Shown: piece after piece, positions 2,707 to 22,307 of the stretch
How positions within the stretch are numbered: position 1 is the stretch's first letter
How the letters are laid out: each line of letters opens with the position of its first letter
Translations under genes and position numbers: made by a program
Assembly: GCA_964563715.1 (NCBI GenBank)
Contig: CAZLXA010000002.1
Location: forward strand, 9,467 to 73,466
Length of the DNA: 64,000 nt
Direction: 5' to 3'
Source of the DNA: an uncultured Candidatus Saccharibacteria bacterium
Lineage (GTDB): Bacteria; Patescibacteriota; Minisyncoccia; Phycocordibacterales; UBA9973
Notes under the pieces: generated by a model
Told to the model about the DNA's origin: nothing
Database searches by the model: none
What the model saw: only the letters and a program-made list of their open reading frames with translations

Positions 2707-2722
2707 TGATTAGTGATTAGTC

Positions 2723-2755: not shown

Positions 2756-2770
2756 GTATTTTCCTAGAAC

Positions 2771-3904: not shown

Positions 3905-4076
3905 ATTTATTAATATTTAGTTATCAGAAATTCTTCTTCTGGCACTAAAAAAACCGCATCTTGCGGCACAGTTGAAGATCTTTTTGTTTTACTTAATCAA
4001 ACTACAAAAAGGGGTAACCTTCAAACCGAGCTTATAATTTAATTAATATACTATATATATAATAATTAATCAACTC

Positions 4077-4103
4077 CCAGATAGCGGCAAGGCCGCTATC
4101 TGG
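4077..4103. repeat. REP-like hairpin copy 1 (CCAGATAGCGGC-AAG-GCCGCTATCTGG)
   Basis: Perfect 12-bp stem, 29 nt upstream of the ATG at 4133. Confidence 0.9.
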
Positions 4104-4132
4104 TATTTTTTGTTTGTAGTATAATAAATATT

Positions 4133-4861: not shown

Positions 4862-4945
4862 GGATTTGGGCAATTTAGGATGTATATATTTGGTTTTTGA
4901 ACTAGTATTCTTTCTTTTTTAAGTATTATTTGGTATAATATATTT

Positions 4946-5572: not shown

Positions 5573-5587
5573 TTTTTAATTTATTTT

Positions 5588-5893
5588 ATGCGAGCATATA
5601 TAAAAAAATTGCAATCTAAATCAGAAATCGCCAGAAAACAAATTTTTATTGGTTCACTTGTTGTTTGTATGTCGGTAGTAGGTGTTGTTTGGGTTAGTAG
5701 TTTGGGTTATAAATTTAATAAAGAAAGTACAGCGAAGGTTCAAGAAGATATAAAACCATTTGCATTGTTTGGTCAAACAATTTCTGAGACATATAACAAT
5801 GTGACTGCTAGTGTTGGAAATATTTCAACTAAAAAGATTGAAGAAAAGAATGACGAAAAGATTATAGAACTTATTCCGGTTGAATACCAATAG
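5588..5893 (+). CDS. small membrane-anchored protein
   Basis: One N-terminal TM helix (IFIGSLVVCMSVVGVVWV). Stop lies 3 nt before the gyrA start. Confidence 0.4.
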   Translation: MRAYIKKLQSKSEIARKQIFIGSLVVCMSVVGVVWVSSLGYKFNKESTAKVQEDIKPFALFGQTISETYNNVTASVGNISTKKIEEKNDEKIIELIPVEYQ

Positions 5894-5896
5894 ATT

Positions 5897-8347
5897 ATGG
5901 ATAAAAAAGATGAAGAGATAAAAGATAAGCATATTAACGTTGTTTCTGTCGATATTGGATCAGAAATGAAAGAATCGTTCATCGATTACGCGATGTCGGT
6001 TATTACTGATCGAGCATTACCCGATGTTCGTGATGGTTTAAAACCAGTTCATCGTCGTATTTTATATGCAATGTATGAGATGGGTCTAACTCACCAAGGG
6101 CGTTTTCGTAAAAGTGCGGCTGTAGTCGGAGATGTTCTCGGAAAATATCATCCTCATGGTGATGTGGCTGTGTATGATTCGATGGTTAATATGGCCCAAG
6201 ATTTTTCTTATCGTTATCCACTTATTCACGGTCAAGGAAACTTTGGTTCGATCGATGGAGATGGAGCGGCGGCGATGCGTTATACTGAAGCAAAAATGTC
6301 AAAAGTCTCATCGCTTTTATTACTTGATTTAGAAAAAGAGACAGTTGATTTTCGCCCCAATTATGATCAAACTCGTAAAGAACCAATTGTTTTACCGACC
6401 GCAGTGCCAAGTTTAATTTTAAATGGAACATTAGGTATCGCTGTTGGAATGGCTACTAATATTCCACCTCATAATTTAGCTGAAGTCGTTGATGCGACAA
6501 TTCACTTAATCGACAATAAAGATGCAACAACTGAAGATTTAATGCAATTTATTAAAGGTCCTGATTTTCCAGTCGGAGGAATAGTTTACGGCCAAGCCGA
6601 TTTACTTCACGCCTATTCCACTGGCCGAGGTGGAGTAGTGACTCGGGGAGAAGCAGAAATTGTTGAACAAAAAAGTGGGACATTCCAAATTATAATTACC
6701 TCTATTCCTTATCGAGTTAATAAGTCAGCTTTAATTGAAGCAATTGCGGCTCTTATTCAAGAAAAAAAATTAGAAGGTATAAAAGGACTTCGAGATGAAT
6801 CAACAAAAGATATTCGAGTTGTTATTGATTTAAAAAATGGAGTTATTCCTCAGAAAGTCTTAAATTATATTTACAAGCACACTCAACTTGAACAATCTTT
6901 CAATTTTAATATTGTGGCACTAGTTGATGGTGTCCCTCAGACATTATCGCTTAAGAGTTTACTTTCTGAATTTATTTCTCATCGAGTTGTCGTTGTTCGA
7001 CGTCGAACAGAATATGATTTGCGTAAAGCGAAAGACCGAGAACATATTTTACTTGGTTTAAAAAAAGCCCTCGACCATATAGATCGCGTAATTTCAATTA
7101 TTCGAGCTTCGAAAGATACAGCCGTGGCTAAATTAAATTTAATGAAAGAATTTAAATTCTCTGATATTCAAGCCACAGCTATTTTAGAAATGAAACTTCA
7201 AAAATTAGCTGGACTTGAAAGAAAGAATGTTGAGCTTGAATTAAAAGAAAAACAAGAATTGATTAAAGAATTAGAAGCTTTACTTGCCAGTCCTAAAAAA
7301 ATGCTCAAAATTATTGGAGATGAGCTCAAGGAAATTAAAGAAAAATATAACGATATAAGAAAAACAAGAATTGTCAAAGGTGGAGTTAAGGCTATTAATG
7401 AAGAAGATTTAATTCCAGAAAAAGAATCAGTCTTGGTCTTTACAAAAGGTGGCTATGTTAAAAGAACTGACCCAAGTGAGTATCACACTCAAAAACGTGG
7501 AGGGGTTGGGGTGATTGACATTGAGACGAAAGAAGAAGATTTTGTCACGATGCTTGTCTCGGCTAATACACATTCGGATTTACTTTTCTTTACGAATTTA
7601 GGCAAAGCGTATCAAATTAAAATGTACGATATCCCTGAAGGCAAACGCGCCACAAAAGGTAAGTCAATTATGAATTTTATTTCACTGGGTGGCGAAGAAA
7701 AAGTTACTTCAATTTTACCAATTGATAAAGAAACTAAAAAGACAATAGAAACACTGATGATGGTGACAAAAATGGGTATTACTAAAAAAGTTGGAGCTGA
7801 AAGCTTTAAGGATGTTCGTCGAAGTGGTTTGATTGCTATTAAATTAGATGATGGAGATGAACTTCAGGCTGTGCTTTCTATCTCAAAAGGTGATGATGTC
7901 ATGCTCGCCACAACACTCGGTCAATCTATTCGTTTTCAAGAAAAGGATGTTCGCGAAATGGGCCGAAGTGCCGGAGGAGTTCGAGCTATTAAACTTAGTA
8001 AAGGTGATTTCGTGATCGGAGTTGATAAAGTTCCAAAAGGAGAGAATTCACTTTCAATCTTAACTTTGTCATCTAATGGTTTGGGCAAAAAAACAAATAT
8101 TAAAGAATATAAAACACAAAACAGAGGTGGATCTGGAATTAAAACAGCCAAAGTTACACCTAAAACTGGTAAATTAATTGTGGCTAAAATTGTAAAAGAT
8201 GAAACTGAAATTATCGCTGTCTCACAAAAAGGCCAAGTGATCAGGGTCAGCCTTGATTCATTGCCGACTTCTGGTCGTCAAACTCAAGGAGTGACGGTTA
8301 TGAAATTGCGACCTGGGGATAATATTGCTTCAATCACATTTTTGTAA
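5897..8347 (+). CDS. gyrA: DNA gyrase subunit A
   Basis: [28 protein letters not shown], AAAMRYTE (active-site Tyr) and C-terminal beta-pinwheel repeats. Confidence 0.95.
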
Positions 8348-8379
8348 TATTTATTTTTAATTTGTGATATAATATAAAC

Positions 8380-8913
8380 ATGTTTACAAATCCAGAACAA
8401 AATATTTTACCACTCGGCTTAAGAGATGGAATGAAAGTAGCAGATTTTGGAGCCGGAACAGGTTTCTACTCTAAAGCAGCAAGTAGTATAGTTGGATATT
8501 CTGGAAAAGTTTATGCTATTGAGGTTCAAAAAGATTTAGTAAAAAAATTAGAAAGTGAAATAATACACTGGGGACTGAAAAATGTAGAATGTATTTGGGG
8601 TGATATTGAAAGAAGCGGGGGAACTAAAATTTCTGATCATTCTATGGATGCAGTTATTATTTCGAATGTTTTATTCCAAGCTGAAGATAGACTTGGTTTA
8701 ATTGATGAAGCTAAAAGGGTTTTAAAAATAGGTGGCCACATTCTCTTGATTGATTGGAGTGATTCTTTTGGAGGTATGGGTCCAACAGCTCATAATGTTG
8801 TGAATGAAAGTATGGCACGGGAATTATTTGAAAAAAGAGGGCTTAAATACGAAAAAAGAATTTCCGCAAATGACCATCATTATGGTATAATTTTTAAGTA
8901 TGAGTCCCGTTAG
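8380..8913 (+). CDS. class I SAM-dependent methyltransferase
   Basis: VADFGAGTGFYS motif I, IISNVLFQ, LKIGGHILLIDW. Confidence 0.75.
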   Translation: MFTNPEQNILPLGLRDGMKVADFGAGTGFYSKAASSIVGYSGKVYAIEVQKDLVKKLESEIIHWGLKNVECIWGDIERSGGTKISDHSMDAVIISNVLFQAEDRLGLIDEAKRVLKIGGHILLIDWSDSFGGMGPTAHNVVNESMARELFEKRGLKYEKRISANDHHYGIIFKYESR

Positions 8914-9020
8914 AAGCCACGATCACGATATAAAAATGAAATTAATATATAATTATAAATTAAGAAAAGTAAGTCAACGTAGTTGTAAAAATACAACGAT
9001 CGTGACCTGCTTCTAACGGG
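8906..9020. repeat. 115-bp inverted-repeat (MITE-like) element filling the intergenic gap
   Basis: Left arm CCCGTTAGAAGCCACGATCACGAT. The right arm, reverse-complemented, is CCCGTTAGAAGCAGGTCACGAT. The interior is AT-rich with small hairpins. Confidence 0.55.
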
Positions 9021-10322
9021 ATGAGTAATTTCCAAACAATTTTAATTGCTATTTTTCTTTCCTTTTTTGTTTTTGGAGTTTTAATTTTCTCAGGTCTAAT
9101 TGATATTGGTAAAACCAAAGAAAATACTAGCCTACAAGGTAAGGTTGTTATTTGGGGTACTTTTCCAAGTGGAGTGATGATTGATGTGATTAAAAATATT
9201 AAATCAAATAATAAAGATTTAAATATAAGTTATATTAGAAAAGACCAAATGACTTACCAACAAGATTTAATTGAAGCCTTTGCCAATGGAGTTGCCCCTG
9301 ATTTGTTTATAATTACTCCAGATATGATAATCAGGAATACCAATTTCTTCTATAAAATCCCTTATGAAAGTTATGCGGAAAAAACTTATCGAGATACATT
9401 TATAAATGGAGCAGAAATTTATTTAGACACAGAAGGGGCTTTAGCATTTCCACTAGTCGTAGACCCAATGGTTTTGTATTATAACAAAGACATTTTATCA
9501 AATGAAGGTATTGTTTCTCCTCCGACAACTTGGGATGAATTATTTACCTTAAATTCGACATTAACCAAAAAAGAAAATAATGGAACTATTAGTCAAAGTA
9601 TGATTGCTCTTGGGCAGTACGATAATGTTAATAATGCAAAAGATATTTTAGTAAATTTACTTTTACAAAATAATAATTCCTTAATTAAGAAAAATGAAAA
9701 AGGTCTATATATTTCAACTCTAAGTAGTAATCCATCAAATCTATCAGTCACTCCAGCCCAATCGGTTTTGACTTTCTATAATGAGTTTTCAAATCCATCA
9801 AATATTGCTTATTCATGGAATAAATCTCTACCAGAATCGCGAGATATGTTTACGAGCGGTAAAATGGCATTTTATTTAGGACGGGCTAGTGAATTATTTA
9901 GTATTGAATCGATTAATCCTAATTTAAGTTTTGATGTTACTCAAATTCCACAAATTAAAAATTCCACAACCAAACGGGCATATGGAGAAATTTATGCTAT
10001 GGCTATCAATAAAAAGTCGCCCAATGTGTCTACGGCTTTTAACGTCGCAAGTAATATAGCTTTAGGAGATGAGGCGAAAAATTTTGCTACCGCATCTTCA
10101 CTCCCACCAGCATCGAAAGTTTTACTTTCCGATAAGCCTAAAGACCCATATCTATTTACTTTTTTTAATTCGGCTTTAATTGTCCGTTCATGGATAGACC
10201 CAGATAAAATTAAAAGTGATTTAATTTTTAGTGAATTAGTAGATAACATATTATCAAATAGATTGTCGATAGGTGAGGCTATTAATAAAGCTCAAGGCCA
10301 ACTTGAGATTTTAATTAAATAA
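9021..10322 (+). CDS. membrane-anchored extracellular solute-binding protein (ABC SBP family 1-like)
   Basis: N-terminal TM helix and an SBP_bac_1-like pattern (GxAPDLFI, VLYYNKD, PxTWDEL). No permease or ATPase genes adjacent. Confidence 0.55.
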   Translation: MSNFQTILIAIFLSFFVFGVLIFSGLIDIGKTKENTSLQGKVVIWGTFPSGVMIDVIKNIKSNNKDLNISYIRKDQMTYQQDLIEAFANGVAPDLFIITPDMIIRNTNFFYKIPYESYAEKTYRDTFINGAEIYLDTEGALAFPLVVDPMVLYYNKDILSNEGIVSPPTTWDELFTLNSTLTKKENNGTISQSMIALGQYDNVNNAKDILVNLLLQNNNSLIKKNEKGLYISTLSSNPSNLSVTPAQSVLTFYNEFSNPSNIAYSWNKSLPESRDMFTSGKMAFYLGRASELFSIESINPNLSFDVTQIPQIKNSTTKRAYGEIYAMAINKKSPNVSTAFNVASNIALGDEAKNFATASSLPPASKVLLSDKPKDPYLFTFFNSALIVRSWIDPDKIKSDLIFSELVDNILSNRLSIGEAINKAQGQLEILIK

Positions 10323-10327
10323 TAAAT

Positions 10328-10750
10328 ATGATTAAAAAATCGTTAATGTTTGTGCTGGCTTTTGTTATAATTTTCTTACCATCTTTTTTTGTCCTTGAGG
10401 CAAAAGAAGTTCAATTTAAAGGACTAGTGCCAATTTGTAATACTATGGTTGATGGAGCCAAAGGTGGTTTTTCTGATCCTTGTGATTTTGATGTGTTACT
10501 TGCTTTTGTAAATAAAATCATAAATTTTCTTTTAGTTGTCATGGCCACACCACTTTTTGCTCTTATTTTAGTTTATGTGGGTTGGTTGTACCTTAGTGAC
10601 ATGGGTAGTGCTGAGAATATTGGTAAGGCCAAAAAGATTTTGAAAAATGTTGTCATTGGTTATATCATAGCACTGGCTGCGTGGTTAATTGTTAAAACCA
10701 TACTTTCAACATTAGGCTTTAATCCAAAAGATGCATTTTTGCTTTTTTAA
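10328..10750 (+). CDS. TrbC/VirB2-like T4SS pilin family protein, paralog 1
   Basis: Signal peptide, GLVPIC...PCDF motif, then two hydrophobic helices split by a GSAENIGKAKKILKN loop. Confidence 0.55.
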   Translation: MIKKSLMFVLAFVIIFLPSFFVLEAKEVQFKGLVPICNTMVDGAKGGFSDPCDFDVLLAFVNKIINFLLVVMATPLFALILVYVGWLYLSDMGSAENIGKAKKILKNVVIGYIIALAAWLIVKTILSTLGFNPKDAFLLF

Positions 10751-10796
10751 TTATTATTAATCGTCGTTTTTAATATAGAATATATTTAATAAAAAA

Positions 10797-11234
10797 ATGA
10801 AGTTTTTAAAAAGAAGAAAATATGGTTTGATGTCAAATATTTTAAAGTATAGTTTTGTTATAGTTTTTGCATTAATGTTGATCACTCCAGTTTTATTGGT
10901 AAATGCAGAATTTGAGACAGGCGATGGTGTAAGCACTGGTACAAATATTACTACCGGTATTGAAAATCCACTGGGTCAAGATGGCCCTCAAGATATCCCG
11001 GCATTCATTCGTCTTATTGTCCGAGCGATTTTATATGTCGGAGTACCAATTGTCGCTTTAGCTATTATTTATACTGGATTTTTATTTGTGGAAGCGCAAG
11101 GCAATCCCGAGAAAATTACGAAAGCTAAGAAGGCTTTAACCTATACACTGATTGGGGCAGCATTATTATTAGGAGCATTTGTTGTCGCAGAAGCGATACA
11201 AGCAACGGTCGAAGAAATTACAAGCACAACATAA
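10797..11234 (+). CDS. TrbC/VirB2-like pilin family protein, paralog 2
   Basis: Signal peptide plus two TM helices separated by QGNPEKITKAKKAL. Confidence 0.5.
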   Translation: MKFLKRRKYGLMSNILKYSFVIVFALMLITPVLLVNAEFETGDGVSTGTNITTGIENPLGQDGPQDIPAFIRLIVRAILYVGVPIVALAIIYTGFLFVEAQGNPEKITKAKKALTYTLIGAALLLGAFVVAEAIQATVEEITSTT

Positions 11235-11265
11235 TATTATGTTGATTATTAATAAATATTAATTT

Positions 11266-11679
11266 ATGAAGAAAAAATTTGTATTACTCAGTAGTTTAAT
11301 TATTGTTGGATTGTTAATGTTTACCTCCGTAGGGGCAGTTTCTCCTGCAGATGGTAGTCCAGCTGTAACATCAACTACAACTGAGAGAATTTGTAGTAAT
11401 AATTCATTGACAGATGTAACCGGTATAATTAATTGGGCTAGTTGTTTGTTGGTTAAAACAATAATTCCATTTTTATTTGCTCTGGCAACAGTAGCCTTTA
11501 TTTGGGGAGTGATTCAATATTATTTGAATCCTGATAATGAAGAGAAAAGAAAAAAAGGTAAAAGTTTTATTATTGGAGGTTTGATTGCATTATTTGTCAT
11601 GTTGTCAGTCTGGGGCCTAGTCGCAATCTTAACTAACACATTTGGGTTGAGTAATACTATTCCACAGCTTCCACAATAG
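11266..11679 (+). CDS. TrbC/VirB2-like pilin family protein, paralog 3
   Basis: Signal peptide, FIWGVIQYY, loop NPDNEEKRKKGKS, second TM helix. Confidence 0.5.
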   Translation: MKKKFVLLSSLIIVGLLMFTSVGAVSPADGSPAVTSTTTERICSNNSLTDVTGIINWASCLLVKTIIPFLFALATVAFIWGVIQYYLNPDNEEKRKKGKSFIIGGLIALFVMLSVWGLVAILTNTFGLSNTIPQLPQ

Positions 11680-11793
11680 GGTAGATATTGTTTTTTGTTT
11701 TTGTGTTATACTTAGTTAGTAAAGGTAAAAGTCTTTTTCACTTTGGTCGGTAGAAAAGACAATATTATAAAAATGTTTTATTATTAAAAATAT

Positions 11794-12159
11794 ATGAAGA
11801 AAATTATTTCGTTTGGGGCAGTTTTGGGAGCTTTCCCAGTTGTGGCTTTAGCTGCTGATGCTTGGTCAATTTTGGGTAATATTGGTAATCTATTAGGATT
11901 TGTTATTCCAATACTTATTACTTTAGCAGTTGTTTATTTTATCTGGGGTGTCATTCAATACACTGTTTCAAATGATGAAGAAGCTAAGAAGGGTGCTCGT
12001 GGTAAAATTATTCAAGGACTTATCGGTTTGTTTGTTATTGTGGCCTTCTGGGGCATTTTATCACTTATAACAAGTACATTTGGAGTAGGACCTGAACAAT
12101 TAGACCCAAGTATGATTCCTTGTATTCCAAATGAACAAGCAGGAGTATTTTGTAATTAA
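11794..12159 (+). CDS. TrbC/VirB2-like pilin family protein, paralog 4
   Basis: Signal peptide, FIWGVIQYT, loop SNDEEAKKGARGK, second TM helix. Closest to paralog 3. Confidence 0.5.
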   Translation: MKKIISFGAVLGAFPVVALAADAWSILGNIGNLLGFVIPILITLAVVYFIWGVIQYTVSNDEEAKKGARGKIIQGLIGLFVIVAFWGILSLITSTFGVGPEQLDPSMIPCIPNEQAGVFCN

Positions 12160-14531: not shown

Positions 14532-14606
14532 GGCCTTATCGTCTAACGGTTAGGACATCGGCTTTTCAAGCCGGTAATCCGGGTTCGATTCCCGGTAGGG
14601 TCACCA
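14532..14606 (+). tRNA. tRNA-Glu (anticodon UUC), CCA encoded
   Basis: Cloverleaf folded by hand: acceptor GGCCTTA/TAGGGTC, anticodon stem TCGGC/GCCGG, loop TTTTCAA, T-arm CCGGG-TTCGATT-CCCGG. Confidence 0.9.
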
Positions 14607-16275
14607 ACAAGCCTTTTGAAGTATATTTTTCTCTATTTATCCTTAAAACTAAAGTCAATTTAGGTGTTCCACTAATTATTTCTTTACAAGTTGGAAACTC
14701 TTCAAAGATCAAACTAAATACTGCCTGCAATTCTTCGGGAGAAGTAATATCTTCAAGCATTTTAGCTGGGTGTTCCATTAAATCTTTTGAAGATTTAATA
14801 TACTCGATTACATCTTCTTCTCTTAATTCAACAGTTTTTCTATTTTCTTTCGATTTATTTATTTTAACTTGTAGTTCTGCTATTTGTTCTTCAATACCAT
14901 TTCTAACAGCGTCCATCGTAGCTAATGGAAAAGATTTTATTAAGTTTGCCTTCTCTAACTCCAAATCTGCAATATGTTGATTTGCTTGAGAAGAAGAAAT
15001 AGCAAGATCACCTTCTTGTTCACGATACTTGAAAAGCAAAACTCTATCAAGAATTTTTATAAAACTATCCGTATAACGAAGTTTGTTTATAAAAGTAAAA
15101 AATTGTTTTTCAATCTCAATTTGATTATAAGAGACTCTTTTATGATTTCTTTCACAGTGATACGCGCCAAATTTAGCACCACTTTTACCAGTTGAAAAAC
15201 TAGCCTTCATAGATTTCCTACAAATATCACAAAGAAGCACCCCTTTAATCGGAAAACTAGGATTATATTTTTTTCTTTTTGCAGAAAGACTAGAAAGATT
15301 TTTCTTTAAAATTAACTGATCTTTACTAATACTTTCAAGATAAATTTTACCTCTGTTTGCTTTATTAAAAGTATCTATAGATACTAAGCCTTTATATTTA
15401 GCAATAATAGGTTGATTTTTTGTCCATTTTTCACATATAACACCACAATAAGTTGTTCTTTTAATTATTGCCTGTAAATGTTTTACTGTCATCTGATGTC
15501 CTCCTATTGAACCCAAAACTTTTTGTTTTGATTTATCCCATCTTTTTTGTAATGGTGTTTTATATCCGATAGTATTTAACTCATCACAAATTTGTTTATC
15601 GGACAATAAACCATCAGCTCGTAAATTAAAAACTTTAATTATAAAAAGTGATCTTTCAGGGTCTGGAACTTGTATACATTTCTTTTTATTTTCAACAAAA
15701 ATTTGTTTATTTACATATCCTTCATCAGGTCTACCTATTTGATAACCATCTTGGGTAAGGCGTATTTCTGGCTTAATAAGACGATGCAAAATTTTTATTC
15801 TTTCTTTTCTTGCGTCTTCAACTTTCTGCCTTTCTGCGTCTTCGCTCGGTCTTGCCACAGCCCAAGAATATTCAAAATCAAAACCAAATTCCTCGAAAGA
15901 ATTTTTCTCATCTTGAATTATTTCTGTTGTATCTCTTAATTTTACATCGAATTGTTTTACATCTTCCCATATTTGATCATAGTCAATGGTTCCAGCTCTA
16001 GTCAATCTATCAAAATCCCAAAAAACAAAATATTTTATATTTACTTGCTTTTTATTGCCCTTTAGTATTTCCATTATTTGTAAATAAACAGGTCTATTTT
16101 TCTTTGTCCCTGTGTAAGGTTCTTTAAAAACAATACCTTGAGGAAAGAGTTTCCAACCCATTTTTTCACAATGAAGTTTTATTTCTCTTTCTTGATCATC
16201 TAAACCCTCGCCATTTTGAGCTTGTTTTGGGCTACTAACTCTTGCATATCCAATTACATAAATAGGTTCGTTCAT
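14566..16275 (-). CDS. large serine recombinase (resolvase/invertase N-domain + recombinase domain + zinc ribbon)
   Basis: YARVSSPKQ catalytic-Ser motif, central recombinase domain, CDICRKS...YHCERNH zinc ribbon and a coiled-coil tail. The last 13 codons are antisense to tRNA-Glu. Confidence 0.85.
   Translation of the reverse strand: MNEPIYVIGYARVSSPKQAQNGEGLDDQEREIKLHCEKMGWKLFPQGIVFKEPYTGTKKNRPVYLQIMEILKGNKKQVNIKYFVFWDFDRLTRAGTIDYDQIWEDVKQFDVKLRDTTEIIQDEKNSFEEFGFDFEYSWAVARPSEDAERQKVEDARKERIKILHRLIKPEIRLTQDGYQIGRPDEGYVNKQIFVENKKKCIQVPDPERSLFIIKVFNLRADGLLSDKQICDELNTIGYKTPLQKRWDKSKQKVLGSIGGHQMTVKHLQAIIKRTTYCGVICEKWTKNQPIIAKYKGLVSIDTFNKANRGKIYLESISKDQLILKKNLSSLSAKRKKYNPSFPIKGVLLCDICRKSMKASFSTGKSGAKFGAYHCERNHKRVSYNQIEIEKQFFTFINKLRYTDSFIKILDRVLLFKYREQEGDLAISSSQANQHIADLELEKANLIKSFPLATMDAVRNGIEEQIAELQVKINKSKENRKTVELREEDVIEYIKSSKDLMEHPAKMLEDITSPEELQAVFSLIFEEFPTCKEIISGTPKLTLVLRINREKYTSKGLLVTLPGIEPGLPA
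14590..14604. repeat. attL core (direct repeat)
   Basis: TCCCGGTAGGGTCAC, identical to 21491-21505. Confidence 0.8.
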
Positions 16276-16290
16276 CGCAAGTATATTTTA

Positions 16291-16452
16291 TCATTTATTA
16301 TCTAAATCTTTAAGCTTTTTATCAATAAACATTTTAAAAGCTATATCAGCAAAGCGAGAAGACATACCAAATAGTTGCTCAATTTCTTTTTCAGAAAATT
16401 GTTTTAATTCCTGTTCTGTAAGTATTTGAGTTTTAAACTCATTAAGCGTCAT
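16291..16452 (-). CDS. small ORF (53 aa) directly upstream of the recombinase; possible directionality factor or regulator
   Basis: Hand-translated as MTLNEFKTQILTEQELKQFSEKEIEQLFGMSSRFADIAFKMFIDKKLKDLDNK. Its stop is 15 nt before the recombinase ATG. It is below the ORF-track size cutoff. Confidence 0.3.
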   Translation of the reverse strand: MTLNEFKTQILTEQELKQFSEKEIEQLFGMSSRFADIAFKMFIDKKLKDLDNK

Positions 16453-16504
16453 TCATAGAGTTTATTCTTAAAAATCTATACAGTAAAAACTGCTTTAAAC
16501 TATA

Positions 16505-17257
16505 CTACTTAGACATCTTAGAAATTATTTTTCTTATTGATCCATTAGATAACTTCTGTTTAAATACTTTTTTAACATAAATTTGAATGATTGTTTCTTT
16601 TCTTTCAAAATTCTTTAATTTACTTTGTATTTCAGGCAAAAGCCCATCATTTTTTGCCAAAAGAAGAAGATCTTTAATCTTTATCTTATGATAATGAAAT
16701 ATAAAATTATCTCTTAAAAAATATTGAGACGGTTTCAGTTTTATAGCCTTGTTTCCACTTAATTTTAATTGAGTTTCAGAAATTATTTTTGAATTAGAAA
16801 GTATAAAAGTTTTAATATTATTAACTGGATTATTTGTTCCAATTCTTACATAGACACCTTTTGGTAAAAACAGACTTTTGTTAGGTAAATCAATAGCTTC
16901 AGATAAAGAAAAAAATTCACAGCCTGTTAAATTTATATTCTTTATAGTTTTATCTGATACTTGATTAAAAATAAAATATTCTTGAAGAAAATCATTAACC
17001 GTCTGGTCTTGAGATATAAATGTGTCAAAATGACTAGGATTATTGTGGGCTAATATAGCTTTATACACGCCTAAATGTCTTACAACAGTAGTTAAATCAT
17101 ATTTACTAAGATCTATGCCATTACCAAAAGCAATACCATATTTAGGCAAACCAGCCCTTTCTCGATGGACAAAAAGAAGTTCCTTGTTTTTCTTTTTAGC
17201 AAGTAATTGAAATAAAACTTGTATTTTTGAAGTGTCTTTTTTCTTTATCATAAACAA
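16505..17257 (-). CDS. island hypothetical protein (250 aa)
   Basis: ORF only. No motif recognised. Very AT-rich. Confidence 0.45.
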   Translation of the reverse strand: MFMIKKKDTSKIQVLFQLLAKKKNKELLFVHRERAGLPKYGIAFGNGIDLSKYDLTTVVRHLGVYKAILAHNNPSHFDTFISQDQTVNDFLQEYFIFNQVSDKTIKNINLTGCEFFSLSEAIDLPNKSLFLPKGVYVRIGTNNPVNNIKTFILSNSKIISETQLKLSGNKAIKLKPSQYFLRDNFIFHYHKIKIKDLLLLAKNDGLLPEIQSKLKNFERKETIIQIYVKKVFKQKLSNGSIRKIISKMSK

Positions 17258-17367
17258 TTACAGTTTACCATTTTTGCTTCAATTTTCCTTAGTTTTTTGT
17301 TATACTAAAATCACAACTAAATAAGTTTTCCTAACCCCTATGAGATTTATTATAGGATATGGAATTT

Positions 17368-17507
17368 AATCGCGACGAACTTAAAGAACCTATCATTAGG
17401 GCGTTCGTCGCGTTATATTGGGAAACCGATATATAGATCTTCGGATCTTCCTAGTGGTAGGCTTTTTGCGTCTTACGCTAGGAATTTATCATTAAATCGC
17501 GACGAAC
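17368..17507. promoter_or_regulatory. iteron/operator-like repeats in the divergent intergenic region
   Basis: AATCGCGACGAAC at 17368-17380 and 17495-17507, with an inverted copy GTTCGTCGCG at 17403-17412. Also an AGATC-TTCG-GATCT hairpin. Confidence 0.45.
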
Positions 17508-17512
17508 AATTT

Positions 17513-17872
17513 ATGGATAAAAAGACAAAAATAATATTGGTAATTGTTTTAATAATAGGTTTATTTTATATATCAAAAAATCTTTTCTCAAATAAAGAAG
17601 CTGATTTATTTCAGAAAAAACAAGAGTGTTCTAAAAACTATGATTTAGTAAATCAAAAAATTAAGGATAGTGGCAGAATTATGAGTAATGAAAGCTACAC
17701 ACTCAATGAGATCTTTTATAGCCCTAAAATGAATACTTGTTTATATGCTTACACTATTCACACTGGAGGCGGAGAAGAAATTTATAGTATTTATGATGTC
17801 TTTGGTGGGGATATTTTTGGAGGTAGTCTTTCTGATGAATTTCAAAAGGAAAGAACAAAATTAAAACAATAA
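17513..17872 (+). CDS. island small membrane-anchored/secreted protein (119 aa)
   Basis: N-terminal TM helix (IILVIVLIIGLFYI) and 2 Cys. Confidence 0.4.
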   Translation: MDKKTKIILVIVLIIGLFYISKNLFSNKEADLFQKKQECSKNYDLVNQKIKDSGRIMSNESYTLNEIFYSPKMNTCLYAYTIHTGGGEEIYSIYDVFGGDIFGGSLSDEFQKERTKLKQ

Positions 17873-18253
17873 TTAAAACTTTCGTATAACTTCTTCAGCA
17901 ATTCTTTGATGATCGAAACTAAATTCAGGAAGTTCCTCGAGATGATTTTTTTCAAAAATTGTATTGGTTGAAAATTCTCTTTTGTATTTTCTTTCTAATA
18001 GCCAAGCACAGGCTTTCCAATCTTTCACTCCAGCCTTTCTGATTGTTTCCAATAGTGTTTGCTTGTATTCAATCACACTTTTGGCAACTTTATCCGAAAA
18101 GTCCGAATTTGAACGCTTCCAATTACAAAGCGTATCTTCGTCTATCCCAGCGAGCAAAGAGGCTTCTTTTTGGGTTAAACCATTGCTTAAAGCCTCAGTG
18201 ATAATAGCAACCCTCTCAGGGGTCATCTTGTATTGTATTTTAGAATTAACCAT
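17873..18253 (-). CDS. HTH DNA-binding protein (phage terminase-small-subunit-like / homeodomain-like)
   Basis: GLTQKEASLLAGIDEDTLCNWKR HTH, followed by WKACAWLLERKY, a pattern common in small phage/mobile-element HTH proteins. Confidence 0.5.
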   Translation of the reverse strand: MVNSKIQYKMTPERVAIITEALSNGLTQKEASLLAGIDEDTLCNWKRSNSDFSDKVAKSVIEYKQTLLETIRKAGVKDWKACAWLLERKYKREFSTNTIFEKNHLEELPEFSFDHQRIAEEVIRKF

Positions 18254-18313
18254 AAATTATTCTTAGCGATTAACTAATAATTTACGATTTGATAATTTAA
18301 TTATAACAGAGAA

Positions 18314-18787
18314 TTAAGGATTTACAACATACAAATAACCCCCTTTGATAGCTTGATTTCTTTGTTGATTTTCAATTATTCTAGGCACAAGATAAAAGAC
18401 AGTGGAAATAAGTAAAAGTGATGTAGCTAAAAGAAATAGAGGTTTTTTATAAAATAAATTATCTTCTTTAATAACCGACTGAAGAGTAATTACAAAAAAC
18501 ATCATCATTGATACAAGTAATATTGAGAGTGATATAAAATCACCCATATTAACAACTTTTTCAAAAAGCTTAAATTCCACTGAAACAAAAGTGATAAAAG
18601 AAGCAAAAATACCTAATATGGTTATTAGTTCTCTTTTTGACTGTTCAATACTGTTAGTCAATTCTTTTGTTTTTTCTTTTAGTGTTCTGATATCAAAATT
18701 TACTGAGTCATCAGAACTTTCTTCAATATTTTTAGCACCCTTATCATCAACTAAACCTATTACTTTTTCTTCTTTTTCTTTCTCCAT
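18314..18787 (-). CDS. island membrane protein (157 aa; acidic N-terminus, 3 predicted TM helices)
   Basis: Hydrophobic segments ILGIFASFITFVSV, FISLSILLVSMMMFFVITL and LFLLATSLLLISTVFYLV. Confidence 0.45.
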   Translation of the reverse strand: MEKEKEEKVIGLVDDKGAKNIEESSDDSVNFDIRTLKEKTKELTNSIEQSKRELITILGIFASFITFVSVEFKLFEKVVNMGDFISLSILLVSMMMFFVITLQSVIKEDNLFYKKPLFLLATSLLLISTVFYLVPRIIENQQRNQAIKGGYLYVVNP

Positions 18788-18790
18788 ATA

Positions 18791-19045
18791 TTATTTTAAT
18801 TCAAGATTTGGAATAAGTGCCTTTAGTGCAAAATAATAGATCCTTCCTGTTGTATTTCCAACAACAATAACCATTGGAACAGATTTTCCACCAAGAATAA
18901 ATCCTGCTGTTTGATCTTGTATTGTTTGAATTGCAAAACCATCCACAAGAGTAAAGCCAGTAGTTTCTCCAAGAAAAGCTTCTCTGTTTTGAAATTTTTG
19001 ATTTAATGCTGTAGTTATTTGACTTTTAAGTGAATTAAAATCCAT
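18791..19045 (-). CDS. island small protein (84 aa)
   Basis: ORF 3 nt upstream of the membrane-protein gene. No motif. Confidence 0.35.
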   Translation of the reverse strand: MDFNSLKSQITTALNQKFQNREAFLGETTGFTLVDGFAIQTIQDQTAGFILGGKSVPMVIVVGNTTGRIYYFALKALIPNLELK

Positions 19046-19119
19046 ATGTATTATTGTAGCATTTTATATACCAAAAATAAATAGTTAAAATTACTAAAAA
19101 GTGGTAAAATACTTTTTAT

Positions 19120-19944
19120 ATGACGACTAAATTACTACAGAATATCAACAAAAAACCACACTTTTTAAGTGATGATTTTGTTTTGTATCAAGGAGATAGC
19201 ATTGAGCATTTAAGCCAACTTCCAGAAGGAAGTGTTGATATGATTTTTGCAGATCCCCCTTATAATTTATCAAATGGTGGTTTTACTGTTCACGCAGGAA
19301 AAATGGTTAGTGTCCACAAGGGAGACTGGGATAAAAGTAAGGGATTTGATAGTGATTATGATTTTCATTTAAAATGGCTAGAAGCTTGCCATAGAGTTTT
19401 AAAAGAAAATGGCACTATTTGGGTAAGTGGAACATATCATTCAATATATCAATGTGGAACAGCAATGCAACAGATTGGATTTCATATTTTAAATGATATA
19501 TCTTGGTTTAAACCAAATGCTTCGCCAAATCTTTCTTGTAGATTTTTTACCGCTTCTCACGAAACATTGATATGGGCAAGAAAAAGCAAAAAAGGTAAAC
19601 ATTATTTTGATTACAAGTTGATGAAAAATGGAGACTGGAAAGATGACTTTATAAAAAAGCCTAATTTACAAATGCGTTCTGTTTGGTCAATACATCCACC
19701 GAAGAATTGGGAAAAAGTTCACGGAAAACATCCAACCCAAAAGCCCATAGAATTATTACGTCGTTGTATTTTAGCAAGCACAAAAAAGGGAGATATAATT
19801 ATTGATCCTTTTACAGGAAGTTCAACAACAGGAATTGCTTCAAAAATGATAGGTGGAAGAAAATTTGTTGGTTTTGATTTAGATAAAAACTTCTTAGACT
19901 TGTCTGTCAAAAGATATAAAGAAATTATTAAAAATAATAAATAA
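19120..19944 (+). CDS. DNA methyltransferase, N4/N6 type (beta class, PF01555-like)
   Basis: Motif IV IFADPPYN comes before motif I DPFTGSSTTG. HPTQKP motif present. Confidence 0.85.
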   Translation: MTTKLLQNINKKPHFLSDDFVLYQGDSIEHLSQLPEGSVDMIFADPPYNLSNGGFTVHAGKMVSVHKGDWDKSKGFDSDYDFHLKWLEACHRVLKENGTIWVSGTYHSIYQCGTAMQQIGFHILNDISWFKPNASPNLSCRFFTASHETLIWARKSKKGKHYFDYKLMKNGDWKDDFIKKPNLQMRSVWSIHPPKNWEKVHGKHPTQKPIELLRRCILASTKKGDIIIDPFTGSSTTGIASKMIGGRKFVGFDLDKNFLDLSVKRYKEIIKNNK

Positions 19945-19949
19945 TATTT

Positions 19950-20495
19950 ATGATAAAAGATGGTAAGGGTGGAGCAAATACAAAAACAGGTCTTGTTTTT
20001 GAAATAGAAAAAGATTTAGTTGTTTTTTTAAGTAAGCAAAAAGGATATACAACTCAAAAAATCGAAGGCTATAAACAATCATATTTTATTCTATACAACA
20101 AAGAACAAGTGGCGAGAACTTTTCCCAAGAATGATTTATATACATTTTTAGAAAAAGAACATAATCTTGATTGGGCTTCTATCCTGTCAAAAAAACTTTT
20201 ACCAGACGATGCCTTATATGTTGTTCTGAATAATACTGTTTATATTATTGAAAAGAAAAATCAACAAGTAGCTGGTTCTGTAGATGAAAAATTACAAACC
20301 TGTGATTTCAAAAGAAAACAATATAAAAAACTTTTTTCAAGATTAAATTTTGAAGTTGAATATATTTATCTTTTATCTGATTGGTTTAAACATCCATCTT
20401 ATAAAGATTATTTGGATTACATTATTTCAGTAGATTGTCAGTATTACTTTGAATATATACCCTTGCAGAAATTAGGACTTCCTATTCCTAAATAA
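19950..20495 (+). CDS. putative type II restriction endonuclease (PD-ExK)
   Basis: Starts 5 nt after the MTase. LPDD...(13 aa)...IIEKK fits the PD-(D/E)xK pattern. Confidence 0.45.
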   Translation: MIKDGKGGANTKTGLVFEIEKDLVVFLSKQKGYTTQKIEGYKQSYFILYNKEQVARTFPKNDLYTFLEKEHNLDWASILSKKLLPDDALYVVLNNTVYIIEKKNQQVAGSVDEKLQTCDFKRKQYKKLFSRLNFEVEYIYLLSDWFKHPSYKDYLDYIISVDCQYYFEYIPLQKLGLPIPK

Positions 20496-20504
20496 TTTTT
20501 ATAT

Positions 20505-21152
20505 ATGGCAAACGAACAAGAAATTAAAGATAACCTAAAAGCACTAGAAGATAGTATTTTTGAAGCTAAATCTGCTTATACACTTTGGAAAGTAATTGCA
20601 TACTCTAGGTCAAGTGGAGTTGTTCCGCTAGAATTAGCTGAAAAATATGTAAAATCTCAGCAAACAGCACCTGCTTTTTTTATTATGGCAGAAAGAACTG
20701 CTTTAATTTCTTTTGTTATTCTTATTCTACACCCCATAGATCAAGACTCTAGATCTTTTTCTCTTTTTAATGTTAATAAAGAAAAAACAAATGAATTTAT
20801 AAAACAAAACGAAAAAACAGTTGAAAATCTTAGATTAGTAAGAAATAAAGTATTTGCACACAAGGATAGTGTAGACGCTTTAAAAATTTTAGTTCCATCA
20901 ATAGAGATAATGGACAATTTTTTTGAAAATATGATTAGTTTTTATAATAATTTAACCAGTGAACACAACCAAAGCATAACTGATTTTAATGCTAGTTGTG
21001 ATAATCTTATTCACGAAATGGAGTATATGTTTATGAACTTAACAAGAGGAGAAAAAATTAGGCTAGAAGAAATAGATCTTGAATGGATGTGGGAAAAAAA
21101 TCCTAAAAAAATATCGGACATTTTTGATAGTAAGAATAATAAAAAATCTTAA
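20505..21152 (+). CDS. HEPN-domain protein (AbiU2-like), putative RNase / abortive-infection effector
   Basis: LRLVRNKVFAHKD contains the RNxxxAH form of the HEPN Rx4-6H motif. Helical composition. Starts 9 nt after the endonuclease ORF. Confidence 0.45.
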   Translation: MANEQEIKDNLKALEDSIFEAKSAYTLWKVIAYSRSSGVVPLELAEKYVKSQQTAPAFFIMAERTALISFVILILHPIDQDSRSFSLFNVNKEKTNEFIKQNEKTVENLRLVRNKVFAHKDSVDALKILVPSIEIMDNFFENMISFYNNLTSEHNQSITDFNASCDNLIHEMEYMFMNLTRGEKIRLEEIDLEWMWEKNPKKISDIFDSKNNKKS

Positions 21153-21337
21153 CAAGTTAATGATAGACAGTTCTACTCCTATAACGGTATAAATATTTTA
21201 GTAATTTTTTAATTTTAAGTATATTTTACAACCTCAGTTTTATTTATAAGTAAATACCCATAGGTAGATAAAACACTTTTCCATTTTAAAATCTCTATTT
21301 CAAAGGTGTTCCACTCTATGGACTGTAAGCTCACAAA

Positions 21338-21372
21338 TGAAAAAACCTGTCGCAAGATAGGTCTTTTCATTT
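21338..21372. repeat. hairpin repeat copy 1 (ATGAAAAAACCTGTCGCAAGATAGGTCTTTTCATTT)
   Basis: Near-identical to 22272-22307. Sits within a longer perfect stem at 21332-21375. Confidence 0.8.
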
Positions 21373-21490
21373 GTGATCCTAAGCGAGATATCTGCATATC
21401 TCGCGTCCGGGAGTCGAAAAGCTTTTGTGTCTTTTTTAAAATTCATTTTAAAAAAGTACAAAAGGTATACTGTTCTCGTAGAGAAAGATA

Positions 21491-21505
21491 TCCCGGTAGG
21501 GTCAC
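21491..21505. repeat. attR core (direct repeat)
   Basis: TCCCGGTAGGGTCAC, identical to the tRNA-Glu 3' segment. Confidence 0.8.
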
Positions 21506-21580
21506 AGATTGACGTATATATAAAATAATGTTATTGTCAAAACAATAAACGAATTTTGTTGTACCTAAAATAATTTAAGA

Positions 21581-22170: not shown

Positions 22171-22271
22171 GTTAATTTACTGTATCCTTTTATATTCTCT
22201 ACAATCTGATTCCCCGCCTACTCACGAGTACACGAGGGCGGGCGGGCAATTTGAACTACAAAGAGTCATAG

Positions 22272-22307
22272 ATGAAAAAACCTGTCGTAAGATAGGTTTT
22301 TTCATTT
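22272..22307. repeat. hairpin repeat copy 2
   Basis: ATGAAAAAACCTGTCGTAAGATAGGTTTTTTCATTT. Confidence 0.8.

What the first reader, a model, noticed from the sequence alone, without database searches (positions are those of the whole stretch)
14566..16275. Serine recombinase paired with tyrosine-integrase-style tRNA att repeats, and its ORF reads through attL into the antisense tRNA
The only recombinase in the island is a large serine recombinase (YARVSSPKQ, zinc ribbon). Known large serine integrases recombine at a ~2-bp crossover, share little attB/attP identity and rarely target tRNA genes. A 15-bp identity block inside a tRNA 3' end is the hallmark of tyrosine integrases. The recombinase ORF also does not stop inside the island. 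Its last 13 codons (LVTLPGIEPGLPA) are the reverse complement of tRNA-Glu 14566-14606. By my hand splice of the predicted attP junction, the excised form would end ...LVTLPGYLSLREQYTFCTFLK instead. So the C-terminus of the enzyme would depend on integration state.
Basis: partly seen in the sequence, partly recalled or inferred. Interest (0 to 1): 0.6.

Follow-up and report, generated by a model that had tools for sequence, protein, structure and literature searches.

The report
Serine integrase that targets tRNA ends

Summary
The ORF 14566-16275(-) is a genuine large serine recombinase (LSR). Its last 13 codons plus the stop are the antisense of tRNA-Glu 14566-14606. The 15-bp direct repeat (14590-14604 / 21491-21505) is also real.

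The repeat is not the LSR's att site. Nineteen related elements, including a natural tandem dimer that displays attL, attP and attR together, show an ordinary short LSR core. In the window the core is TCAC, at 14601-14604 and 21331-21334, so the element is about 6.73 kb. The 15-bp fragment lies 156 bp outside it.

attP straddles the LSR's own 3' end:
- The free form would encode 596 aa ending ...LLVSLQSIEWNTFEIEILKWK..., a conserved helix.
- Integration replaces that tail with 11 tRNA-antisense residues predicted to be disordered.
- The E-W-N codons copy the tRNA T-loop 5 bp further from the crossover than in the tRNA. This is the known attP/attB zinc-ribbon-motif shift. Their synonymous sites are frozen (AAC in 18/18).

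At least 55 of 76 homologous loci, mostly Patescibacteria, overlap an antisense tRNA gene in the same way. tRNA targeting by serine integrases was called unreported in 2020. I rate this a new variant of a known kind.

The parts
14532..14606 (+). tRNA-Glu(UUC) gene, the integration target (B arm of attB, now part of attL). It is intact after integration. Its last nucleotides, from the crossover onwards (...CACCA), come from the element, which thereby supplies an encoded CCA.
   Evidence: ARAGORN. An identical tRNA with a different trailer occurs in L082.
14583..14591 (+). T-loop/T-stem motif GTTCGATTC. It starts 18 nt before the core and is the inferred zinc-ribbon-domain motif of the B half-site.
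   Evidence: Geometry compared with Rutherford 2013.
14601..14604 (+). attL common core TCAC (tRNA positions 71-74). The inferred crossover dinucleotide is TC (71-72) or CA (72-73).
   Evidence: Across 19 attL/attR pairs in register, only these positions are 95-100% identical. The tandem dimer in L094 brackets the crossover to TCACC.
14566..16275 (-). Large serine recombinase, integrated (attL) form, 569 aa. The last 11 residues after ...LLV are encoded by antisense tRNA.
   Evidence: Pfam Resolvase 7-130 and Recombinase 209-308; phrog_95 integrase. AlphaFold2 mean pLDDT 82, tail 552-569 below 50. Foldseek top hits are full-length LSR cryo-EM structures 9dxd, 9dxf, 9iu2.
14605..14640 (-). P' arm of attP, the LSR coding sequence just upstream of the core (...KYTSKGLL).
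   Evidence: Position is fixed relative to the tRNA end across the family: 63-67 nt from the GTPKL motif in 29 of 33 loci.
16291..19045 (.). Element genes of unknown function: 53 aa (16291-16452-), 250 aa (16505-17257-), 119 aa (17513-17872+), an HTH protein resembling small terminase and R-M control proteins, 126 aa (17873-18253-), 157 aa (18314-18787-), 84 aa (18791-19045-).
19120..21152 (+). Cargo: a type II N6/N4 DNA methyltransferase (19120-19944), a weak PD-(D/E)XK nuclease match below Pfam's cut-off (19950-20495), and an AbiU2/HEPN-like protein (20505-21152).
   Evidence: Pfam, PADLOC MTase_II.
21215..21334 (-). P arm of attP, which acts as a detached 3' exon of the LSR. In frame after the core it encodes V-SLQSIEWNTFEIEILKWKSVLSTYGYLLINKTEVVKYT-stop, the conserved 'WN' tail made only from the excised or circular form.
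   Evidence: Translation. Homologous tails in 18 other elements and 32 full-length WN-type proteins. W and N are invariant.
21308..21313 (+). GTTCCA, the antisense of the W-N codons TGG AAC. It is a T-loop mimic starting 23 nt before the core, 5 bp further out than the real T-loop in the tRNA.
   Evidence: The Asn codon is AAC in 18/18.
21331..21334 (+). attR common core TCAC, the distal end of the 6730-bp element.
   Evidence: The Logan contigs L077 and L078 from two samples both start exactly here.
21335..21490 (.). 156-bp spacer outside the LSR element. It contains a terminator-like hairpin and is probably the remnant of an earlier insertion.
21491..21513 (+).
   Evidence: The junction tRNA + AGATTGA exists in another organism, L082, but AGATTGA was part of the search pattern, so only the following C is independent.

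Best explanation
Window 14605-21334 is a 6.73-kb integrative element. It carries a type II DNA methyltransferase with a possible nuclease partner and an AbiU2-like gene, and was inserted by its own large serine recombinase at the extreme 3' end of tRNA-Glu.

Inferred mechanism:
- The enzyme exchanges strands at a 2-bp crossover inside a 4-bp common core, TCAC (tRNA positions 71-74).
- In attB, the recombinase domain reads the acceptor and T-stem strand, and the zinc-ribbon domain reads the T-loop (GTTCGATTC).
- attP lies across the 3' end of the LSR gene itself. The P' arm is the codons for ...KGLL. The P arm is the codons for SLQSIEWNT..., where GAG TGG AAC copies the T-loop 5 bp further from the crossover. 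This is the standard attP/attB offset of the zinc-ribbon motif.

Shown by sequence:
- The free element encodes a 596-aa enzyme with a conserved C-terminal helix.
- Integration detaches that exon to the far end of the element and fuses the ORF to 11 antisense-tRNA codons, ending at a stop codon antisense to the anticodon loop.

The 15-bp repeat 156 bp further out is the scar of an earlier, unrelated insertion at the same tRNA.

Whether the tail swap changes activity is not known. My best guess is that it is mainly a by-product of placing a T-loop-like half-site inside the ORF, with a possible regulatory side effect.
For: LSR identity:
- Pfam and PHROG hits.
- Invariant S14 and a Cys/His zinc cluster (C349, C352, H373, C374, H378) in the family alignment.
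- AlphaFold2 model with the catalytic domain, a long helix, the recombinase domain, a zinc ribbon and a two-helix coiled coil at 403-482.
- Foldseek E = 1e-15 to 1e-12 against full-length LSR structures over 510-574 alignment columns.

Family-wide link to tRNA genes:
- 55 of 76 genome loci have an antisense tRNA overlapping the ORF's 3' end (33 Glu; also Arg, His, Val, Gln, Gly, Leu, Lys, Tyr, Asp). The distance from the GTPKL motif is 63-67 nt in 29 of the 33 loci where the motif was found.
- 82 of the 120 closest proteins have tRNA-antisense tails.

All three att sites seen together:
- Contig L094 carries a tandem dimer of a 4333-bp element. The upstream LSR copy (P0127, 595 aa) has the WN tail across the attP junction. 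The downstream copy (P0125, 571 aa) reads into tRNA-Glu.
- All three mismatches between the two copies lie at the junctions and bracket the exchange to TCACC.

The same architecture elsewhere:
- 19 elements including the window have an in-frame WN-coding P arm 4.3-11 kb upstream and a 3-8-bp core at a fixed register.
- Identity between attL and attR is 100% only at two adjacent positions.

attP/attB geometry:
- Inner positions match at offset 0 and the outer motif GAAT[C/G]GAAC matches at offset +5, as described for LI integrase (PMC3783163).

DNA-level constraint:
- The Asn codon of W-N is AAC in 18/18 against a background of 0.37, p about 5e-9.

Window-specific evidence:
- The splice at TCAC is in frame and yields a canonical WN tail.
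- Contigs from two samples begin exactly at 21331 and one ends exactly at 14604.

Structure of the two tails:
- The WN tail is predicted helical (563-591 in P0040) after a disordered linker.
- The integrated tail is predicted disordered.
Against: - No recombination was observed. Neither the window's own empty attB (…GGGTCAC|AAATGAAAAAACC) nor its circular attP was recovered.
- Contig ends are indirect evidence. The end at 14604 could also arise from other species sharing this tRNA.
- The register used for the +5 offset was set from the T-loop and the TGG codon, so part of that match is by construction. The independent parts are the core alignment, positions 16-18 and 26, and the codon bias.
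- No clear dyad partner motif was found in the B' or P' arms (inspection of the flanks).
- In tRNA-Gly and tRNA-Val elements one candidate crossover dinucleotide (GC) is palindromic, so the exact dinucleotide is unresolved.
- The origin of the 15-bp scar is unexplained.
Confidence: 0.78

Rival explanations
1. The LSR recombines within the 15-bp identity block, so the island is 14590-21505. The LSR is then an atypical serine integrase with long tyrosine-style att identity, and its excised form ends ...LVTLPGYLSLREQYTFCTFLK.
For: - The 15-bp repeat is exact and not a chance match.
- Three other loci (L015, L024, L074) also show 16-19-bp tRNA 3'-end repeats distal to the LSR.
- A tRNA-Glu followed by AGATTGA exists in another organism.
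Against: - In the window, L015 and L074, a canonical in-frame WN-coding P arm with the short core lies 106-156 bp inside the long repeat.
- The tails predicted from the long repeats are unrelated to each other and to the family.
- The tandem dimer shows exchange within 5 bp.
- Contigs break at 21331, not at 21491.
- Most family members have no long repeat.
Confidence: 0.06
2. A tyrosine integrase encoded elsewhere mobilised the island in trans, and the LSR is a passenger or has another role.
For: - The 15-bp displaced tRNA fragment is the classical signature of tRNA-targeting tyrosine integrases and needs some explanation.
- Only 64 kb of the genome is visible.
Against: - No Phage_integrase domain appeared in any of the 39 window ORFs scanned, nor in the precomputed Pfam annotation listed for the genes of the 4.3-kb L094 element.
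- The fixed, in-frame coupling of the LSR's 3' end to a tRNA end in 55 loci, together with the matching P arm in 19 elements, ties the att sites to the LSR.
- A tyrosine enzyme could still have produced the older 156-bp scar.
Confidence: 0.04
3. The element is a fixed relic. The LSR integrated once by the mechanism above but is no longer mobile, and the detached WN exon and the read-through tail have no present function.
For: - Neither the circular form nor the empty site was recovered for this element.
- Only two contigs carry this exact LSR.
- The integrated-form tail is predicted disordered.
Against: - Both the 569-aa ORF and the 39-codon detached exon are intact and in frame, with the constrained TGGAACACC preserved.
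- Contig start points in two samples coincide with the attR core.
- LSRs sharing at least 90% identity are joined to different tRNA alleles (P0022/P0141, P0004/P0139), and one to an attP junction (P0127). This shows recent mobility in the family.
Confidence: 0.12

Closest known systems
Large serine integrases of phages and ICEs (A118/LI, Bxb1, SPbeta SprA, phiC31, TP901-1)
   Same: - Domain order: catalytic domain, recombinase domain, zinc ribbon with embedded coiled coil.
- Short att common core compatible with a 2-bp crossover.
- A shared outer motif placed 5 bp closer to the centre in attB than in attP, at about positions 11-19 versus 16-24 as in LI integrase (PMC3783163).
- Fold matches to 9dxd, 9dxf and 9iu2.
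   Different: - The target is the 3' end of tRNA genes, with the T-loop as the inferred zinc-ribbon motif. Characterised LSRs target protein-coding or intergenic sites.
- attP lies inside the enzyme's own coding sequence.
- There is an extra conserved C-terminal region (about 486-546) plus the WN helix.
- Sequence identity to solved LSRs is only 13-14%.
- The hosts are mostly Patescibacteria, and the elements are very small (4-11 kb).
Myxophage Mx8 integrase (IntP/IntX), a tyrosine integrase
   Same: - attP lies within the integrase coding sequence.
- Integration creates a recombinant gene with a new 3' end (PMC6070905).
   Different: - Mx8 Int is a tyrosine recombinase, an unrelated enzyme family with a different mechanism.
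- For Mx8 the altered C-terminus was shown experimentally to change activity. Here that is untested.
SSV-type 'suicidal' integrases of archaeal viruses and plasmids
   Same: The attachment site lies inside the integrase ORF and the targets are tRNA genes (PMC7253208 abstract; PMC4383910).
   Different: - These are tyrosine recombinases.
- Integration splits the gene into two inactive halves. Here only the last ~39 codons are detached and all catalytic and DNA-binding domains stay intact.
tRNA-targeting genomic islands with tyrosine integrases (Islander/TIGER classes), and the 14 unverified serine-integrase/tRNA calls in Mageeney 2020
   Same: - Integration at a tRNA 3' end with the tRNA kept functional.
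- The integrase gene abuts the tRNA.
- The 15-bp displaced fragment in the window looks like such an island's scar.
   Different: - The active element here has no long displaced tRNA fragment, because the crossover is at positions 71-73 and only the last 4-5 nt are replaced.
- The enzyme is a serine recombinase.

Membership tests
Large serine recombinase (serine integrase) | N-terminal resolvase-type catalytic domain with the serine nucleophile | tested here: met
   Pfam PF00239, E = 1.8e-14, residues 7-130. YARVSS with S14 invariant in 38 homologs. Profile hit to the TP901-1 integrase catalytic domain 3bvp, E = 5.5e-13.
Large serine recombinase (serine integrase) | Recombinase domain followed by a zinc-ribbon domain with an embedded coiled coil | tested here: met
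   PF07508 at 209-308. Invariant C349, C352, H373, C374, H378. PF13408 is recorded for several homologs. AlphaFold2 shows strands at 357-401 and helices 403-451 and 455-482. Foldseek hits full-length LSRs over more than 500 alignment columns.
Large serine recombinase (serine integrase) | Short att sites with minimal attP/attB identity around a 2-bp crossover | tested here: met
   The common core is 3-8 bp in 19 attL/attR pairs, and only two adjacent positions are 100% identical. The tandem dimer limits exchange to 5 bp. The exact dinucleotide is not resolved.
Large serine recombinase (serine integrase) | Zinc-ribbon-domain motif shifted 5 bp toward the centre in attB relative to attP | tested here: met
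   GAAT[C/G]GAAC occupies index 16-24 in the tRNA arm and 21-29 in the P arm. Mean identity is 0.48 at offset +5 and 0.17-0.32 at the other offsets. Part of the register is set by construction. Reference geometry from PMC3783163.
Large serine recombinase (serine integrase) | Catalyses unidirectional attP x attB integration, with excision requiring a directionality factor | not testable with these tools
   No experiment was possible and no directionality factor was identified.
Tyrosine-integrase tRNA island | A Phage_integrase-family gene inside the island next to the tRNA | tested here: not met
   No PF00589 hit in the nine island ORFs scanned or in 30 further window ORFs.
Tyrosine-integrase tRNA island | Direct repeat of the tRNA 3' segment marking both island ends | tested here: inconclusive
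   The 15-bp repeat exists, but it lies 156 bp beyond the LSR element's own end. It may mark an older island reduced to 156 bp.
Integrases whose ORF spans attP (Mx8-like) | attP lies inside the integrase coding sequence, so integration changes the C-terminus | tested here: met
   Window splice. The same LSR carries two different tails on one contig.
Integrases whose ORF spans attP (Mx8-like) | The altered C-terminus changes enzyme activity or specificity | not testable with these tools
   Only structure predictions are available: the WN tail is helical and the tRNA-encoded tail is disordered.

The most novel reading that the evidence does not exclude
A large LSR clade, mostly in Patescibacteria, has evolved to read tRNA genes as attB, with the T-loop as its zinc-ribbon motif. 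It encodes its own P half-site as the E-W-N codons of a C-terminal helix. Integration would then act as a built-in state switch:
- Only the free circle makes the full-length, helix-bearing integrase.
- The prophage form makes a tail-less enzyme whose mRNA 3' end is complementary to 41 nt of tRNA-Glu.
- This could tune integration against excision, or silence the gene.

Because the target is a near-universal RNA gene feature, such enzymes could serve as integrases for landing sites that already exist in many genomes.
Probability: 0.25. Interest if true: 0.8.

Novelty: new variant of a known kind. Interest (0 to 1): 0.62.

Why it matters
- Serine integrases are the main tools for inserting large DNA cargos, and their natural targets are thought to be almost never tRNA genes. 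A systematic survey called such use unreported and in need of proof (PMC7192596).
- Here a whole clade does this: at least 55 genome loci, and 82 of the 120 closest proteins. The 19 delimited elements are very small (4-11 kb) and lie in streamlined Patescibacteria genomes.
- The att sites can be read from natural attL/attP/attR triplets. They give a clear natural example of the 5-bp zinc-ribbon-motif shift that underlies LSR directionality.
- This is also a serine-recombinase counterpart of the Mx8 and SSV arrangement, in which the integrase gene spans attP. I found no earlier report of it in the searchable literature.
- The enzyme, attP and attB sequences needed to test tRNA-end targeting and the effect of the tail swap are all specified here.
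- For annotation: many '569-aa' LSR gene models in metagenome-assembled genomes are fusion products ending in antisense tRNA. tRNA-fragment repeats can also mislead island delimitation.

Tried and rejected
- **Exact and near-exact repeat searches.** I searched for tRNA 3'-end repeats within 10 kb upstream of the LSR in all tRNA-linked loci. Only 3 loci had long repeats, and these turned out to be scars outside the elements.
- **Crossover from the long repeats.** I first modelled the crossover at the T-loop edge of the 15-19-bp blocks, with the identity explained as tRNA restoration. I dropped this after the tandem dimer and the 19 P arms.
- **Dyad-symmetry scan.** A scan of the four attB/attP sites reconstructed from the long repeats gave no consistent centre.
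It supports AGATTGA as a possible ancestral trailer, but AGATTGA was in the search pattern.
- **Search for circular forms.** Both versions of attP were absent from viral contigs, and the 596-aa protein was absent from the protein collection.
- **Flanking-gene look-ups.** These returned only short contigs. Their end points were informative but indirect.
- **Are WN tails specific to non-Patescibacteria genome bins?** No. The same LSR cluster has both tail types. WN-type loci have no adjacent tRNA.
- **Spacer comparison.** The scar spacers of the window, L015 and L074 share no sequence homology.
- **Literature.** I found no description of tRNA-targeting LSRs in Patescibacteria, or of an LSR whose ORF spans attP. 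The library is incomplete, so absence is not proof.
Full report
**1. What is at the coordinates**

- The ORF 14566..16275 on the minus strand encodes 569 aa beginning MNEPIYVIGYARVSSPKQ.
- ARAGORN finds tRNA-Glu(ttc) at 14532..14606 on the plus strand.
- The ORF's last 13 codons (LVTLPGIEPGLPA) and its TGA stop are the reverse complement of 14566-14606.
- The stop codon is the antisense of anticodon positions 35-36 plus A37. This explains why so many homologs are exactly 569 aa.
- The repeat TCCCGGTAGGGTCAC occurs at 14590-14604 and 21491-21505. The 17-nt pattern containing it, searched with up to 3 mismatches, was expected 0.01 times in shuffles.

**2. The protein is a large serine recombinase**

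- Pfam gives Resolvase (7-130) and Recombinase (209-308). PHROGs gives phrog_95, integrase.
- In an alignment of 38 homologs, S14 and a Cys/His cluster (C349, C352, H373, C374, H378) are invariant.
- The AlphaFold2 model has mean pLDDT 82. It shows the catalytic domain, a long helix, the recombinase domain, zinc-ribbon strands and a two-helix coiled coil at 403-482. Residues 552-569 fall below pLDDT 50.
- The three best Foldseek hits in the PDB are full-length LSR cryo-EM structures (9dxd, 9dxf, 9iu2), with E = 1e-15 to 1e-12 over 510-574 alignment columns.
- No tyrosine recombinase domain was found in the nine island ORFs scanned or in 30 other window ORFs.
- The island's cargo is a type II DNA methyltransferase, a weak PD-(D/E)XK nuclease match (below Pfam's cut-off) and an AbiU2/HEPN-like protein. 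It also has an HTH protein that matches small-terminase and control-protein profiles.

**3. The read-through into a tRNA is a family property**

- The protein has 424 relatives at E ≤ 1e-10, mostly from Patescibacteria metagenome-assembled genomes.
- Of the 120 closest, 82 end in peptides such as ...LVTLRGIEPRFQP. These are antisense translations of a tRNA T-arm and acceptor strand.
- In 76 genome loci, 55 have a tRNA gene on the opposite strand overlapping the ORF's 3' end: 33 Glu, and also Arg, His, Val, Gln, Gly, Leu, Lys, Tyr and Asp.
- The distance from a conserved GTPKL motif to the tRNA end is 63-67 nt in 29 of the 33 loci where the motif was found.
- The remaining loci are cut by contig ends, or carry a different tail containing an invariant W-N (the 'WN tail') with no tRNA nearby.

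This coupling identifies the LSR, and not an enzyme acting in trans, as the integrase.

**4. Where the att sites really are**

*The tandem dimer.* One 90%-identity protein cluster contains the same LSR with two tails:
- P0125: ...DLLV-TLRRVELRFQA
- P0127: ...DLLV-SQYYLGWNTIENEIIKWKTVF...

Both lie on one contig (L094) as a tandem dimer of a 4333-bp element. The upstream copy reads across the element-element junction, which is attP, and has the WN tail. The downstream copy reads into tRNA-Glu, which is attL. All three mismatches between the copies are at the junctions. They confine the exchange to GGTGA in the LSR-sense strand, equal to TCACC in the tRNA (positions 71-75).

*The window.* The sequence GGTGTTCCACTCTATGGACTGTAAGC-TCAC-AAATG at 21306-21339 closely resembles the L094 P arm. 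Spliced at TCAC, it continues the LSR frame as V-SLQSIEWNTFEIEILKWKSVLSTYGYLLINKTEVVKYT-stop.

*Other elements.* A motif search found the same in-frame WN exon 4.3-11 kb upstream of the LSR in 18 further elements: 17 of the tRNA-linked loci and the L094 dimer.
- Placed in register, the 19 attL/attR pairs share cores of 3-8 bp.
- Only two adjacent positions are identical in all 19, and a third in 18.

*Conclusion for the window.* The element runs from 14605 to 21334 (6730 bp) with core TCAC at 14601-14604 and 21331-21334. The crossover dinucleotide is TC (71-72) or CA (72-73).

*Independent hint.* Short-read contigs from two samples start exactly at 21331, and one ends exactly at 14604. This is what an assembly graph does where occupied and empty sites coexist. 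The left end could also reflect other species sharing the tRNA.

**5. The att sites have canonical LSR geometry, built on the T-loop**

- Next to the core, the tRNA arm and the P arm are similar at the same offset (positions 8, 9 and 11: 63-74% identity).
- Further out, the shared motif GAAT[C/G]GAAC is the antisense of the T-loop GTTCGATTC. It sits at index 16-24 in the tRNA arm and 21-29 in the P arm.
- Mean identity is 0.48 at offset +5, against 0.17-0.32 at the other offsets.
- In window coordinates, GTTCGA starts 18 nt before the core in the tRNA, and GTTCCA starts 23 nt before the core at attR.
- With the crossover at index 5-6, the motif occupies half-site positions 11-19 in attB and 16-24 in attP. 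Rutherford et al. report the same positions for the zinc-ribbon-domain motif of LI integrase (PMC3783163).

In the P arm the motif is spelled by the codons E-W-N (GAA TGG AAC).
- The Asn codon is AAC in 18 of 18 elements, although AAC makes up only 37% of Asn codons in the same genes (p about 5e-9).
- The following Thr codon is ACC in 15 of 18.

The conserved W-N is therefore at least partly a DNA recognition element.

Caveat: I set the register from the T-loop and the TGG codon. The independent evidence is the alignment of the cores, positions 16-18 and 26, and the codon bias.

**6. The C-terminus does depend on integration state**

- The free form is 596 aa with a WN tail that is conserved across phyla. 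W and N are invariant in 32 full-length proteins.
- In the WN-type homolog P0040, the tail is predicted to be a helix (563-591) after a disordered linker that coincides with the crossover region.
- The integrated form loses this helix and gains 11 tRNA-encoded residues predicted to be disordered.
- LSRs sharing at least 90% identity carry tails from different tRNA alleles (P0022/P0141, P0004/P0139). The integrated tail is therefore host sequence, not a selected peptide.
- Whether losing the helix alters activity is unknown. The closest precedent is the tyrosine integrase of phage Mx8, where attP lies in int and integration changes the enzyme's 3' end and its behaviour (PMC6070905). SSV-type integrases are another.

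**7. The 15-bp repeat**

- It lies 156 bp outside the element and is followed by AGATTGAC.
- A tRNA-Glu with an identical sequence followed by AGATTGAC exists in another, non-syntenic organism. AGATTGA was part of my search pattern, so this is weak support for its being an ancestral trailer.
- L015 and L074 show the same arrangement, with a 16-bp tRNA fragment 153 bp and about 106 bp beyond the LSR's attR. Their spacers are not homologous.
- I read these as scars of earlier insertions at a recurrently used tRNA. Their origin is unexplained, and a tyrosine integrase cannot be excluded for them.

**8. Novelty**

- Mageeney et al. found t(m)RNA use by 4.9% of serine integrases against 44.5% of tyrosine integrases. 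[quoted passage not shown]
- A minority of the tRNA-linked Prochlorococcus elements (tycheposons and related cryptic elements) carry an LSR.
- I found nothing on tRNA-targeting LSRs in Patescibacteria, or on an LSR whose ORF spans attP. The library is incomplete.

The enzyme and its chemistry are of a known kind. The target class, the T-loop-mimicking half-site written in codons, and the tail swap are a new variant.

**9. Verdict**

- What remains is a coherent, testable and fairly surprising system.
- No recombination event was observed for this particular element. The exact crossover dinucleotide, the B' and P' half-sites, the directionality factor and the function of the tail swap remain open.

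Noticed in passing
window 21335-21513; L015 about 2472-2645; L074 about 2978-3105; L024 2624-2642: A displaced 15-19-bp tRNA 3' fragment lies 106-156 bp beyond the LSR element's attR in the window, L015 and L074. L024 also has such a fragment, but its attR was not located. The spacers are not homologous, each begins with a terminator-like hairpin, and each contains an inverted T-loop-like GG(G)A(A/G)TCGAA. They are probably scars of earlier insertions at the same tRNA. Their origin is unexplained.
   Followed up: partly
L094 7340-16017 (contig CAYJED010000004.1): A perfect tandem dimer of a 4333-bp LSR element at tRNA-Glu(ctc) shows attR, attP and attL on one contig. It is either a true tandem integration or an assembly merge of the circular and integrated forms.
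   Followed up: yes
window 14601-14606 versus 21331-21337: The reconstructed empty tRNA-Glu gene would end ...GGGTCACAAA, with no encoded CCA. After integration it ends ...GGGTCACCA, so the element supplies the CCA. About two-thirds of the related attL tRNAs encode CCA.
   Followed up: partly
window 17873-18253 (-): A 126-aa HTH protein of the element matches phage small-terminase families (phrog_4102, E = 1e-17) and a restriction-modification control-protein profile. It could be an R-M controller, or a hint of satellite-like packaging.
   Followed up: no
window 21331-21372 and 22266-22307: A 42-nt hairpin-containing sequence is repeated at 90% identity. The first copy starts exactly at the attR core. 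It is probably a recurrent terminator.
   Followed up: no
window 4077-4864: An IS200/Y1-transposase-like ORF (4133-4861) is flanked by, and contains, 30-nt palindromic repeats CCAGATAGCGGCCTTGCCGCTATCTGG (4077, 4318, 4835). This looks like a REP/RAYT-type arrangement.
   Followed up: no
window 30271-39195 (+): A 2974-aa ORF is built from several families of tandem repeats with periods of about 195 and 126-138 nt. It is probably a giant surface protein.
   Followed up: no
window 10328-12159 (+): Four small paralogous ORFs in a row. In a look-up of the same contig, the same-length gene products carry T4SS_pilin (PF18895) hits, so this looks like a pilin cluster.
   Followed up: no
L091 (1.05-Mb contig), 1-11773: A WN-tail family member sits at the edge of a conjugative-element-like region (coupling protein, relaxase) with no tRNA nearby, next to PemK and CBASS-like genes. 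This suggests that some family members use non-tRNA sites or were captured in the attP state.
   Followed up: no
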